64,000 bases of DNA from Eledone cirrhosa (Eukaryota). Each line of letters begins with the position of its first letter. Position 1 is the first letter of the stretch. This document shows positions 24,691-58,475 of this stretch, piece by piece. The DNA lies in the NCBI GenBank assembly GCA_964016885.1, contig OZ024761.1, positions 24,304,001 through 24,368,000 of the forward strand. The letters are read 5' to 3'. The notes under the pieces were generated by a model, which was not told where the DNA came from, ran no database searches, and worked only from the letters and a program-made list of their open reading frames with translations. Position numbers and translations under genes: made by a program.

Positions 24691-24874
24691 TAGGAACCAG
24701 TAAGACCCCGACAGCTGAGCTCAAGCCGTTTCGACGGCGAATTAGCCGTCGAAACGGCTTGAGCTCAGCTGTCGGGGTCTTACTGGTTCCTATTACCCAC
24801 TCTACTACCTCAAGTATTGAGTACTTTGGTGCGTTATGGTCCACCTGGTTCCTTACCACATTTCCTTCGTTATA
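24691..24874 (-). mobile_element. Hairpin-plus-tail element, copy A
   Basis: Perfect 48-bp arms 24691-24738 / 24745-24792 plus about 80-bp tail; in (TA)n; homologous to copies B-D. Confidence 0.85.
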
Positions 24875-24944
24875 TTATATTATATATATATATATATTAT
24901 ATTATATATATATATATATATTATATTATATTATATATATATAT

Positions 24945-25200
24945 ATTTAAGAGTTAAACAAGGTTCAATGAATACATCAAAGAATGAGTTTTACAATAGA
25001 TTGGAAGCACTCAACTGTTAAAATGTTTTCCAGAGTTATTAATATTAATTCAAAATATTAACAAAATAGATATTTTTGTGATCAATTATATTATTTTTAT
25101 TTTATCTGATGAGGACGTACTGTCGAACGTAACTCTAACTGTATAATAAAATATAATTGATCACAAGAATATCTATTTTGTTAATATATTGAATTAATAT
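24945..25200 (+). mobile_element. Fold-back element with deleted hammerhead at the hairpin tip
   Basis: About 50-bp arms 25042-25092 / 25150-25200; tattttat CTGATGA ggacgtactgt identical to 45868-45843(-) but the GAAA segment is missing. Confidence 0.7.
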
Positions 25201-27611
25201 ATATATATATATAAATATATATATATATATAAATATATTCATCTAACGAAAATGAATATTAAATCTTTACTTCAGTATTGAGTACTCATTTCTCTCAGGC
25301 GTCAATCACATACGAATATATATATAAATATAGTGCATACCTGTATATTTGTATTTATATACAAATATATATACATATACATGTGTATATATATACATAT
25401 ATATATATATATATATATATGTGTGTGTGTGTGTATGTATATATATATATATATATATATATGTGTGTATACGTGTGTGTATATGTATATATATATATAT
25501 GTGTGTGTGTGTATGTATATATATATATATATATATATATAGTAATACCAAATATATGTGGCTGTGTATGTGTGTGTGTGTGTGTGTGTGAGTGTGTATG
25601 TATATATATATGTGTGTACGTGTGTGTATATGTATATATATATGTGTGTACGTGTGTGTATATGTATATATATATGTATATATATATGTGTGTGTGTATG
25701 TATATATATATATATAGTAATACCAAATATGTGTGTGTGTGTGTGTGTGTGTGTGTGTGTGTGTGTGTGTGCGTACTTACTTCGTCTCCTTATTTCTCAG
25801 ATTAAGTTTATATCTATGACTATGATTGCCAGAAAGAAGCGATAAGAGATATTTTACTATTAGACCCTAATGAAGGCAATAGATGAATATGGTGGAAGAT
25901 AAGAATCATGGGAGAGAACACACATACACACACATATATACACACACATACACACATATACACACACATACACGCACATATACACACATACACACACACA
26001 CATATACACACATACACACATATATACACACATACACACGCATACACACATAAACACACATATAGACACATATACACACATATATACACACATACACACG
26101 CATACAAACACATACACACATACAGACACATACACACTCACATACACATATACACGCACATACACACACATACAGATACATACAGACACATATACACATA
26201 TACACACATACACACACATATACACACACATACACACACACATACACACACATATACAACATATACACACATAAACACACATATACACACATATAGACAC
26301 ATATACACACATATATACACACATATACACGCATACACACACATATACACGCACATACACACACATACACACATACAGACACATATACACATATATACAC
26401 ACATACACACACATATACACACACATACAGACATACACATATACACTCACATACGCACACATATGCACACATAAACACACACATACACAGACATATATAA
26501 CATATACACACATATATACACACACATACTCACATAAGAACACGCACATACGCATATACACACATATACACACATACAGACACATACACACTCACATACA
26601 CATATACACATACATACACACATTCACGCACATACACATATACAAACATATACACATACACGCGAACAGGCACATGCGCTCTCTCACAAACACACACACA
26701 GATGGACATACTCACACACACACACACACACACACACACACACACACACACACGAACAGTCACAAATAGTCAGGAAAACCCTCATACACACACACACACA
26801 CACACAGACATACGAATAAACCCACACACATGAACACACACATCCGCACACGCTTATACACACGCACACAGACAGGAACACATACTCCCAGGAGCACACA
26901 CTCGAACACCAACTCACACATACACACATACACACCCTCAAACACTCAGACATTCACACACTCACACACTCACACACACACACACACGGACACGTACACA
27001 TACACACATACACACCCTCAAACACTCAGACATTCACACACACACACACACGAACACATACACATGCACACGAATACACACACGAACACACACACATACA
27101 CACGAATACACACACGAACACACACACACGAGCACATACACATACACACGAATACACACACACACATATACACACGAATACACACACTCACACGAATACA
27201 CACACATGCTCATATACACACACACACTGACACACACAGGAGAAAAAAAAATTCGAATCGAAATCAACTGATGAAGGGAAGATAATCGAATTTCTAAAGA
27301 TGAGTAATTGCGGCGGATTTGTCAACATGGCGCAGGTTTATCACAGGATTTGTGTCTCCTACGAAGAAGAGTTCCACCTATGCCAGTCGCAGTTACTTTT
27401 TGGCAGAGACACAACAAATGTTCAACTTTGCACAGCAAATCTTCGTTTCTCCCCATATGTGCGTATGCGCGTGTCTGTATGTATATATACATACAGGTAT
27501 ATATATATATATATATATATACATATATATATAATGGAAAAATTTGAACAGGAACAAAACAGAGAGGCAGTACAACGAATGTTTATTAATTTCACGCTCT
27601 GGAGAGTAGGG

Positions 27612-27827
27612 TATAACGAAGGAATTGTGGTAAGGAACCAGATGGACCATAACGCACCAAAGTACTCAATACTTAGGGTAGTAGAGTGGGTAATAGGAAC
27701 AAGTATGACCCCGACGGCAGAGCTCAAGCCGTTTCGACGGCTATTTCTGGACTCAAATAGCCATTTCCGTCCAGAAATAGCCGTTGAAACGGCTTGAGCT
27801 CTGCCGTCGGGGTCATACTTGTTCCTA
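27612..27827 (+). mobile_element. Hairpin-plus-tail element, copy B
   Basis: Tail 27612-27693, hairpin 27694-27827 ending gttcct|(AT)n. Confidence 0.85.
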
Positions 27828-27996
27828 TATATATATATATATATATATATATATGGTAAATATGTTTTGAAACAGTGAGCAAGTTTGAAATTAGAAAATA
27901 GAATAGATTTCATCGTATTTTTTGACTAAAGAAATTTTAGTCTGATAATGGAGTTTAGAACCCTCAGATAAATGGAAAAAGATGAGTATTGACATA

Positions 27997-28047
27997 CATG
28001 GGAGTCGAACCCTCATCTTTGGTTATCCAGACCACTGTGCTACCATT
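27997..28047 (-). mobile_element. tRNA-like SINE head fragment
   Basis: Minus strand tagcacagtgg (A box) ... ggttcgactcc (B box); too short for a tRNA. Confidence 0.55.
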
Positions 28048-56639: not shown

Positions 56640-56830
56640 CCTACCCTCGGTCATCCAGTGGAACGCTCCACTGATACCACACGTCACTTCCATTCGTCAC
56701 TGGTTATTTATGATGGTGTTGAGCTCCTCCACTGTCTCCACCTCTGTGTCTTCTAGCAGAGTGTTCTTCTATGTGGCCTTTCTCCCTTTCTTCCTTGACA
56801 GGTTCTTCCCTCAGTAGGTTACCAGAGCAC
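56640..56830 (-). pseudogene. RTE-type LINE 3' end
   Basis: Minus strand LVLW*PTEGRTCQGR..NTLLEDTEVETVEELNTII..DEWK*RV; related to the 7490-7759 peptide. Confidence 0.75.
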
Positions 56831-57882
56831 TAAATTGTTTGTCACCTCATCCTTGTATCTGATGAGGTGGCCTGCCAATCACATCCTTCTCTTAGTAGGT
56901 TGCCAGCCAGAGCACTAAATTGTTTGTCACCTCATCCTCGTATCTGATGAAGTGGCCTGCCAATCACATCCTTCTCTTAGTAGGTTGCCAGCCAGAGCAC
57001 TAAATTGTTTGTCACCTCATCCTTGTATCTGATGAGGTGGCCTGCCAATTACATCCTTCTCTTAGTAGGTTGCCAGCCAGAGCACTAAATTGTTTGTCAC
57101 CTCATCCTTGTATCCGATGAGGTGGCCTGCCAATTACATCCTTCTCTTAGTAGGTTGCCAGCCAGAGCACTAAATTGTTTGTCACCTCATCCTTGTATCC
57201 GATGAGGTGGCCTGCCAATTACATCCTTCTCTTAGTAGGTTGCCAGCCAGAGCACTAAATTGTTTGTCACCTCATCCTTGTATCTGATGAGGTGGCCTGC
57301 CAATCACATCCTTCTCTTAGTAGGTTACCAGAGCACTAAATTGTTTGTCACCTCATCCTTGTATCTGATGAGGTGGCCCGCCAATCACATCCTTCTCTTA
57401 GTAGGTTGCCAGCCAGAGCACTAAATTGTTTGTCACCTCATCCTTGTATCTGATGAGGTGGCCTGCCAATCACATCCTTCTCTTAGTAGGTTACCAGAGC
57501 ACTAAATTGTTTGTCACCTCATCCTCGTATCTGATGAAGTGGCCTGCCAATCACATCCTTCTCTTAGTAGGTTGCCAGCCAGAGCACTAAATTGTTTGTC
57601 ACCTCATCCTTGTATCTGATGAGGTGGCCTGCCAATCACATCCTTCTCTTAGTAGGTTACCAGAGCACTAAATTGTTTGTCACCTCATCCTCGTATCTGA
57701 TGAAGTGGCCTGCCAATCACATCCTTCTCTTAGTAGGTTGCCAGCCAGAGCACTAAATTGTTTGTCACCTCATCCTTGTATCTGATGAGGTGGCCTGCCA
57801 ATCACATCCTTCTCTTAGTAGGTTACCAGAGAACTAACTTGTTTACCACCTCAACATTGTGTCTGATGCAGTGACTTGTCAA
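56813..57882 (-). repeat. 81/85-bp satellite (12 units plus one diverged) derived from RTE coding sequence
   Basis: Units start 56813, 56894, 56979, 57064, 57149, 57234, 57319, 57400, 57485, 57566, 57651, 57732, 57817; minus strand reads KRRM*LAGHLIRYKDEVTNNLVLW. Confidence 0.9.
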
Positions 57883-57937
57883 TATGTATAAATATATATA
57901 TATATATATATAAATATATATATATATATATATATAT

Positions 57938-58220
57938 GCAAAAGTTCTATTTAAAATTGTTGGGATACAACAAGTAAATATTTTTATGACTGATATAAAG
58001 CACTCGACAAGTATTTGGAGAAGATATACGATATTAAGATGGCTTCCAAAAATAATGGTTGCATTTTAAAAGGGTACGTCAAAGCTTATTTGTAAAACTG
58101 TTATATATTGTATTTTGTCTGATGAAGGCATACCATAATTTAATTTGGTATCCCTGAAATATGTATAATGAAATAAATATAGTTTTATAAATATAGTTTC
58201 CATTTATTAATATCGTATAT
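57938..58220 (+). mobile_element. Fold-back hammerhead-bearing element in (TA)n
   Basis: About 85-bp leader with agcactcgac; outer arms atatacgatattaa / ttaatatcgtatat; HHR inside; homologous to 63795-63953(-). Confidence 0.7.
58105..58180 (+). ncRNA. Minimal type I hammerhead ribozyme, intact core
   Basis: tattttgt CTGATGA(58119-58125) agg-c-atacca [loop] tggtat-c-cct GAAA(58156-58159) t-atgt-a TA atgaaata; stem I extends with GU pairs; AATAAA at 58172. Confidence 0.75.
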
Positions 58221-58259
58221 ATATATATATATATATAAATATATATATATATATATATA

Positions 58260-58475
58260 TAGGAACAGGTATGACCCCGACGGCAGAGCTCAAGCCGTTT
58301 CGACGGCTAATTCTGGACTAAAAGTCCAGAATTTGGTCCAGAATTAGCCGTCGAAACGGCTTGAGCTCTGCTGTCGGGGTCCTACTCGTTCCTATTACCC
58401 ACTCTACTACCCTAAGTATTGAGTACTTTGGTGCGTTATGGTCCATCTGGTTCCTTACCACATTTCCTTCGTTAT
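58260..58475 (-). mobile_element. Hairpin-plus-tail element, copy D
   Basis: Hairpin 58260-58394 plus tail ending ccttcgttata; flanked by (TA)n. Confidence 0.85.

What the first reader, a model, noticed from the sequence alone, without database searches (positions are those of the whole stretch)
24691..58475. Four-copy hairpin-plus-tail element whose arms match within a copy better than between copies
Seen: copies at 24691-24874(-), 27612-27827(+), 46670-46853(+), 58260-58475(-) share both termini (TATAACGAAGG... and ...TTCCTA) and lie in or against (TA)n. Copy A has aaccagtaagaccccgacagctg perfectly mirrored in its other arm, while copy B has aacaagtatgaccccgacggcag perfectly mirrored, so several changes are compensatory. 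The tip differs in every copy. The tip region retains a stem followed by CGAAAC (atggctattt-loop-aaatagccgt-cgaaacggc on the minus strand of copy B), like HHR stem II plus GAAA with the CUGAnGA box lost. Inference: arms are regenerated by fold-back synthesis or gene conversion, or pairing is under selection for mobilisation.
Basis: partly seen in the sequence, partly recalled or inferred. Interest (0 to 1): 0.75.

Follow-up and report, generated by a model that had tools for sequence, protein, structure and literature searches.

The report
Back-to-back Penelope stubs ending at cap
The four hairpins are tiny back-to-back copies of the end of a known kind of jumping gene (a Penelope-like retrotransposon), and their tips sit at what is likely the start of its RNA, which suggests one RNA is copied twice from the two ends of a cut in a TA repeat.

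Summary
The four copies are real and belong to a family with at least 34,322 tails in this 3-Gb genome. They are stubs of a Hydra-type Penelope-like element (PLE). Copy A's sense piece is identical over 135 nt to the pseudo-LTR of an intact 719-aa RT/endonuclease copy (L231).

Arms match within a copy (2.1 vs 5.3 differences, n=53), but not through compensation or conversion: subfamily alleles are two-sided (121 of 141), private mutations never (0 of 32). The hammerhead box is not decayed: the parent carries a U3-A8 variant, and the stubs begin inside it.

New here: about 85% of subfamily-A arms stop within 20 nt of an initiator-like site, often behind an untemplated G, frequently on both arms. 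One control for this G was only weakly discriminating. Some tailed pieces lack the arm that their partner carries. This favours two primings on one capped sense RNA over the published antisense self-priming idea. No RNA data were available. The scan had already reported Hydra stumps on other DNA of this genome; my look-up found no note on the cap or start site.

The parts
24693..24738 (-). Copy A, inverted tailless arm (ends at the 'arm end' site, against (TA)n)
24739..24873 (+). Copy A, sense piece: pLTR positions +6 to +140 counted from the initiator-like A; arm 24739-24790, tail 24791-24873; 135 of 135 nt identical to L231:4355-4489
24745..24778 (+). 3' half of the hammerhead in copy A: stem II 3' strand, GAAAC (24751-24755), stem III, predicted cleavage after GUC (24773), stem I 3' strand; 5' half absent
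   Evidence: fold of the parent region
27613..27753 (-). Copy B, sense piece from the initiator-like A (27753) through arm (27696-27753) and tail (27613-27695)
27754..27768 (.). Copy B tip: a G not in the parent before AGTCC (27754, minus strand) plus a 14-nt junction insert that repeats arm sequence
   Evidence: parent has T or C here
27769..27825 (+). Copy B, tailless arm ending at the arm-end site, followed by (TA)n
46671..46793 (-). Copy C, tailed piece, truncated at about +18 (tail 46671-46753)
46797..46851 (+). Copy C, tailless arm reaching +3, longer than its tailed partner
58262..58322 (-). Copy D, inverted tailless arm (differs from the other arm at 4 sites; probable two-template chimera)
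58323..58335 (+). Copy D tip: junction insert that duplicates the 5' end of the arm
58336..58475 (+). Copy D, sense piece: arm to 58392, tail 58393-58475

Best explanation
The hairpins are minimal head-to-head insertions of the pseudo-LTR of a Hydra-type Penelope-like retrotransposon, likely made when its enzyme cuts a TA repeat and copies the first 60-140 bases of one capped RNA from both cut ends. Shown: identity with the pLTR of a ~3.1-3.5-kb RT/endonuclease element; two fixed 3' ends (arm end and tail end); 5' ends piled at an initiator-like site; junctions with microhomology or short inserts. Inferred: the two 3' ends are internal RT start sites, as measured in vitro for Poseidon_Ac; the pile-up site is the transcription start; the extra G is the reverse-transcribed cap; the two short cDNAs are joined by end-joining. 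The start sites lie in the RNA leader as well as in the 3' repeat, so priming in the leader would give these stubs and priming in the 3' repeat would give long copies.
For: Parent: long copies run from arm+tail into a 3' UTR and an RT ORF. Tandem copies run from the tail into the 5' UTR and ATG. L231 has an intact 719-aa ORF with an inverted tailed copy at one end and a tailless end at the other. Atlas neighbours carry HTH_animal, GIY-YIG and RVT_1; 3 and 2 of 19 aligned relatives hit RVT_1 and GIY-YIG. Fixed 3' ends: 79 of 93 partner arms end at the arm end, 4 at the tail end. 5' ends: 73 of 119 tailed pieces stop between -16 and +8, none between -200 and -17, 7 run beyond -200, 39 stop after +8. 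Genome-wide for subfamily A: 9,523 arms reach +8, 4,604 reach the initiator-like A, only 1,454 run on to -12. A TATTTAAA box lies ~30 nt upstream (promoter motifs recalled). Extra G: base before AGTCC is G 866, C 662, A 105, parent-like T 2,971. 20 of 30 G loci are not explained by the partner arm (by eye). Arms fused straight to (TA)n: G 25, C 10, A 5, T 60 in the first 100 of 487 (by eye; G vs C p=0.017). One RNA: both arms carry the G in 7 of the first 50 of 1,814 tips, one arm only in 2 (by eye; 0 of 100,000 shuffles); subfamily agrees in 48 of 53 (0.21 expected). Two primings: the tailless arm reaches at least 10 nt further in 23 of 83, the tailed arm in 6; 6 tailed pieces lack the arm. 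Literature: PMC11167929 (both strands cut and extended; tail = stretch between two RT starts; dimer predicted); PMC4859970 (untemplated G taken as cap mark in L1/SVA).
Against: No RNA evidence for the start site, the cap or expression. The control position +5 also shows G over A (G 282, T 266, A 64). The G share of non-parent bases is 46% there against 53% at the proposed start, so genome-wide counts alone separate the two only weakly (G:A 4.4 vs 8.2, p=0.0004). +5 may be a second start, or G may be favoured at joints generally. Ends are spread over several positions (-4, 0, +1, +4, +6), not one. The 23:6 asymmetry is partly ascertainment, since copies were picked by the tail, and could come from later deletions. 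G/G concordance pools subfamilies and is also what turn-around synthesis would give. 5 of 53 copies have discordant arms, which needs two RNAs or a template switch.
Confidence: 0.65

Rival explanations
1. Same PLE origin, but the second arm is made by fold-back (turn-around or self-primed) synthesis on the first cDNA, or by self-priming on an antisense template as proposed for rotifer Penelope elements; the enzyme then cuts at the arm end.
For: Subfamily agreement 48 of 53 and shared G on both arms; zero-loop perfect palindromes such as L281/L282; published interpretation in PMC3846280 (Discussion read).
Against: A tailless arm cannot be copied from a tailed strand that lacks it: 6 of 83 such copies, and 23 with a longer tailless arm. 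In L231 the tailless side holds a full element that the tailed side lacks. Tailless single arms occur (L010, L013, L025). Discordant arms occur. A G at the sense 5' end fits a sense capped template, not an antisense one (inference).
Confidence: 0.2
2. The tips mark a structural stop (RT stalling in hammerhead stem II or loop II) or post-insertion collapse of long palindromes, not the RNA 5' end.
For: The pile-up lies inside loop II of the hammerhead fold; long inverted copies exist; the +5 control also has G excess.
Against: A stall would be expected at the 3' foot of the stem (about +17), but most ends lie 5' of the stem's 3' strand. Central deletion of long palindromes would not give an empty zone from -200 to -17. 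Full-length elements also begin at this site (L238, L245). An extra G appears against (TA)n with no partner arm.
Confidence: 0.1
3. Arms are kept matched after insertion by gene conversion, or by selection for a paired RNA needed for mobilisation.
For: Within-copy distance is lower than between-copy distance; 8 of 69 rare alleles are two-sided.
Against: 0 of 32 private alleles are two-sided; one-sided changes fall equally on both arms (45 left, 47 right); the matched variants of copy A are simply those of its master L231; tips do not recur as lineages in the 119 copies read.
Confidence: 0.03
4. An independent non-autonomous DNA element (MITE, Helentron-type or fold-back element) or a miRNA-like hairpin.
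For: Short, non-coding, inverted repeat, TA target.
Against: The sequence is the terminal repeat of an RT-coding element, with a continuum from 180 bp to several kb. The best 150 of 529 Rfam matches listed for the window were all below curated thresholds and none covered a copy.
Confidence: 0.02

Closest known systems
Hydra clade of C-terminal-endonuclease Penelope-like elements (Craig et al. 2021, PMC8557442; passages, section 11 and supplement hits read), including Hydra-1_Obim
   Same: Single ~700-aa ORF, RW(K/R), DKT, YRDDG, CxCX5C linker, CxxC and CxH around the conserved E/N, no CCHH, (TA)n target, tandem/inverted copies with a tail on one side.
   Different: Tail ~83 nt rather than 30-40; unit 3.1-3.5 kb rather than <3 kb; hammerhead is a U3-A8 variant with a long loop II, not canonical; stubs outnumber longer ends about 6:1. 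Three short probes of this family had 0 hits in the held supplement text (long runs there are cut), so it seems not to be a listed family.
Poseidon_Ac internal initiation (Frangieh et al. 2024, PMC11167929; parts 1-2 of 4 read)
   Same: Two internal start sites that define the tail; both target strands cut and extended; AT-rich target; hammerhead cleavage not needed.
   Different: Other clade. The parts read do not describe joining of two cDNAs into head-to-head stubs or termination at a capped 5' end.
Inverted pLTR junctions of Adineta vaga Penelope elements (PMC3846280; passages and Discussion read)
   Same: Head-to-head inverted pLTRs, palindromes at the junction, optional tail, TATA plus initiator in the pLTR.
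   Different: Explained there by self-priming on an antisense template; the data here point to a sense, probably capped template and two primings.
U3-A8 minimal hammerheads of Cercyon PLEs (Cervera and de la Pena 2014, PMC4209133; part 1 of 4 read)
   Same: U3-A8 core covariant, short helix I, bulged base at the 5' side of stem II, located in the pLTR.
   Different: Here helix III is a full 5-bp stem, and the stubs hold only the 3' half.
L1 twin priming and cap-derived untemplated G (PMC4859970; passages read)
   Same: Two target ends prime on one RNA; an extra G marks full-length 5' ends.
   Different: L1 primes the second end at a random internal homology and gives a 5' inversion of different sequence; here both starts are fixed and copy the same leader.

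Membership tests
Penelope-like element (EN+) | ORF with RT and GIY-YIG-type endonuclease | tested here: met
   719-aa ORF with YRDDG and a C-terminal AYIG region; Atlas neighbours HTH_animal, GIY-YIG, RVT_1 at 0.96-0.99; RVT_1 in 3 and GIY-YIG in 2 of 19 aligned members. The query itself had no Pfam hit.
Penelope-like element (EN+) | Pseudo-LTRs from tandem or partial-tandem copies | tested here: met
   Tail runs into 5' UTR and ATG in tandem copies; five tandem units of 3,542-3,543 bp on C1.
Penelope-like element (EN+) | Inverted 5'-truncated copy and tail on one side only | tested here: met
   L055, L121, L122, L136, L231; 79 of 93 partner arms tailless at the same site.
Hydra clade | RWK motif, DKT in place of DKG | tested here: met
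   RLRWR at 35-39 (R for K) and DKT at 117.
Hydra clade | CxCX5C linker; CxxC and CxH near conserved E/N; CCHH absent | tested here: met
   CNCPDRSIC 572, CNLC 670, CKH 698; absence of CCHH judged by eye against the description.
Hydra clade | (TA)n insertion preference | tested here: met
   107 of 119 tail ends are followed by a TA-rich 10-mer.
Hydra clade | Canonical hammerhead in the pLTR | tested here: not met
   Core is UUGANAA (U3-A8) in about 73 of 75 contexts, with position 7 free; no Rfam hammerhead hit. It folds as a hammerhead. This is a descriptive trait, not the clade-defining phylogeny.
Hydra clade | Placement in the RT phylogeny with named Hydra families | not testable with these tools
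Active hammerhead ribozyme | Three-way junction with conserved core | tested here: inconclusive
   Unconstrained fold gives stems I-III around the core; 16 of 16 pairs hold in 12 sequences, but with no two-sided covariation.
Active hammerhead ribozyme | Self-cleavage | not testable with these tools
   No pile-up of 5' ends at the cleavage site: 0 of 119 at +41, 3 at +42.
Non-LTR retrozyme | Tandem monomers each with a whole type I hammerhead | tested here: not met
   The stubs are inverted dimers with half a hammerhead.
MITE / fold-back DNA element | Terminal inverted repeats related to a transposase-coding parent | tested here: not met
   The parent codes RT, and the inverted repeat is offset by the tail.

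The most novel reading that the evidence does not exclude
Tens of thousands of these stubs are a fossil record of PLE integration. A dimeric enzyme copies the same capped sense RNA twice, from two fixed starts in the RNA leader, using both ends of a double-strand cut, and the host joins the cDNAs cap to cap. This would replace the antisense self-priming model for head-to-head Penelope structures, map the element's start site from DNA alone, and mean that most insertion events of this family are leader-primed dead ends.
Probability: 0.45. Interest if true: 0.7.

Novelty: new variant of a known kind. Interest (0 to 1): 0.48.

Why it matters
How Penelope-like elements, the relatives of telomerase, make head-to-head copies with a one-sided tail is still open. 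One paper infers antisense self-priming; an in vitro study found two internal starts and extension on both strands. This family supplies an intact, recently active parent (0.2% divergence in 12 subfamily-A stubs) and thousands of countable junctions that separate the models. The stubs also scatter near-perfect 50-60-bp hairpins through the genome (16 loci in 264 kb here), which would be double-stranded RNA wherever transcribed (untested).

Tried and rejected
DNA search of the genome with copy B returned nothing because common words are skipped. Looking for CTGANGA 5-35 nt upstream of the arm gave 35 unrelated contexts; the 30 read showed no shared canonical box. Rfam: among the best 150 of 529 window matches listed, all were below curated thresholds and none covered a copy; no hammerhead hit on the parent pLTR. 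Pfam gave no informative hit on five ORF fragments or on the intact ORF; the PDB sequence search gave only E=0.19 RT hits. My first guess of the Neptune clade was dropped after motif comparison. A read-through count failed because the gap length was wrong and was replaced. Sequencing runs: no RNA holder listed. Contigs of four runs of unknown kind showed loose TA ends at the arm end and tail end and no intron-like joint in the leader; contigs cannot show a start or expression. The +5 control for the extra G was only weakly discriminating. Literature searches that found no description of start-site or cap-terminated PLE stubs. The library lacks most subscription papers; bioRxiv supplements were closed; a cephalopod repeat paper (PMC13282606, passages) had no mention of hairpin or Hydra.
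Full report
Observation. Each is a long hairpin plus an ~83-nt tail, and no fifth copy is in the window. A 31-letter tail pattern has 34,322 exact matches in the 3.0-Gb genome, against 0 for the reversed control. A 264-kb block around the window holds 16 loci.

Parent. I fetched 80 stretches around the tail matches listed for contig C1. A few copies continue upstream into shared sequence. 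Following it led to kilobase-long head-to-head copies with an RT frame. It also led to tandem copies in which the tail runs on into a 5' UTR and an ATG. L231 holds an intact 719-aa ORF, an inverted tailed copy on its left and a tailless end on its right. Copy A's sense piece is identical to L231:4355-4489. The ORF has the motifs given for the Hydra clade in PMC8557442. It has 836 relatives at E<=1e-30, and its Atlas neighbours carry PLE-type domains. The two subfamily groups examined are 86-87% identical over the ORF. So the hairpin-plus-tail is the smallest form of the known PLE arrangement: inverted truncated copy, with a tail on one side.

Why the arms match. In 53 copies with both arms reaching +8 (drawn from 119 tail-bearing pieces, a few double-tailed elements counted twice), arms differ by 2.09 within and 5.29 between copies. 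Alleles seen in four or more copies are two-sided in 121 of 141 cases. Alleles seen in two or three copies are two-sided in 8 of 69, and private alleles in 0 of 32. Subfamily agrees in 48 of 53 (0.21 by chance); the 5 others include window copy D. The match therefore dates from insertion. Conversion or selection for pairing would leave two-sided private changes.

Hammerhead. No canonical CTGANGA box lies upstream. The parent has ACCCC-UUGANAA-G...GAAAC...GUC-GGGGU, which folds unaided into the three-way junction. In 75 contexts anchored outside the core, position 7 varies (A 35, C 23, G 13, T 4) while its neighbours are nearly fixed. The U3-A8 variant is published for Cercyon PLEs (PMC4209133). 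Pairs hold in 12 sequences, but without two-sided covariation. The stubs start in loop II and so carry only the 3' half. No ends pile up at the cleavage site (0 of 119 at +41).

The tip. Counting the A of TTAGTCC as 0, 73 of 119 tailed pieces end between -16 and +8, none between -200 and -17, 7 run further and 39 stop after +8. For subfamily A genome-wide, 9,523 arms reach +8, 4,604 reach 0 and 1,454 reach -12, so 85% end in a 20-nt window. A TATTTAAA box stands about 30 nt upstream and the site resembles an initiator (motifs recalled). The base before AGTCC is T in this subfamily's parent but G in 866, C in 662 and A in 105 arms. In 20 of 30 G loci read by eye the partner arm does not supply the G (three pairs of rows are two arms of one element). 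Where the arm abuts (TA)n with no partner, the first 100 of 487 give G 25, C 10, A 5, T 60 (p=0.017 for G vs C). Untemplated G is the accepted sign of a copied cap in L1 and SVA (PMC4859970). Against this: at +5, G also exceeds A (282 vs 64, T 266), so either +5 is a second start or G is favoured at joints in general. No RNA data test it.

One RNA, two primings. In the first 50 of 1,814 intact tips, both arms carry the G in 7 and one arm in 2 (0 of 100,000 shuffles; subfamilies pooled). Both arms thus tend to end at the same start, which fits one RNA molecule but also fits turn-around synthesis. What separates the two is that a fold-back arm must be contained in the first strand. In 23 of 83 copies the tailless arm reaches at least 10 nt further than the tailed one, against 6 the other way, and in 6 the tailed piece has no arm at all. 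Selection by the tail and later deletion could explain part of this. In L231 the tailless side holds a whole element absent from the tailed side. Poseidon_Ac cuts and extends both strands from two internal starts that define the tail (PMC11167929). Junctions show overlaps or short inserts typical of end-joining (inference). I therefore favour two primings on one capped sense RNA (0.65) over fold-back or the antisense self-priming proposed in PMC3846280 (0.2).

Novelty. Inverted pLTRs, tails, TA targeting, Hydra elements and U3-A8 ribozymes are all published. Earlier notes of this scan already call similar repeats in this genome Hydra stumps and suggest copying from both cut ends. I found no paper or scan note that ties the tip to a start site and cap or uses the arm statistics to separate the models. 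Verdict: an ordinary class of element with a useful, testable mechanistic record; interest 0.48.

Noticed in passing
window 25106 (+), 58119 (+), 45860 (-), 28910 (+), 4736 (-) and 4870 (+): Other short elements with canonical CTGA(T/A)GA hammerhead-like boxes, two of them within 250 nt of copies A and D; 4736/4870 form an inverted pair.
   Followed up: no
L002, L009, L015, L017 around 1280-1540: The arm is joined head-to-head to a different family with a mostly canonical hammerhead box; all four partners begin at the same CAGTTCC, an initiator-like start. This may be two different RNAs at one cut, though L009 has a TA run between and all four were picked by the pattern.
   Followed up: partly
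G000:C2:356029906-356031751 (-): Seven tandem 299-bp units carrying this family's U3-A8 hammerhead with a shortened loop II: a retrozyme-like array derived from the pLTR.
   Followed up: no
G000:C1:91473171-91493804: Five tandem pLTRs spaced 3,542-3,543 bp plus an inverted copy: a young multi-unit array, a candidate source locus.
   Followed up: no
L231:4387-4423 and 4445-4494: The arm end and tail end share a CTGGTTCCT(A)TTACC(C)AC-like stretch, and each folds into a small hairpin, as earlier scan notes describe.
   Followed up: partly
L037, about 33 kb before the window: An open frame with a paired-type homeodomain end (QVWFQNRRAKWRK), so some stubs may lie in or near a homeobox gene (domain name recalled).
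   Followed up: no
L231:4198-4489 vs runs X5, X6: Contigs labelled as two other organisms match the pLTR, one as a 60-nt palindrome; only 3-4 contigs each, so contamination is not excluded.
   Followed up: no
L134:2525: An arm fused directly to a fragment of a different PLE ORF of the same type (534 aa frame).
   Followed up: no
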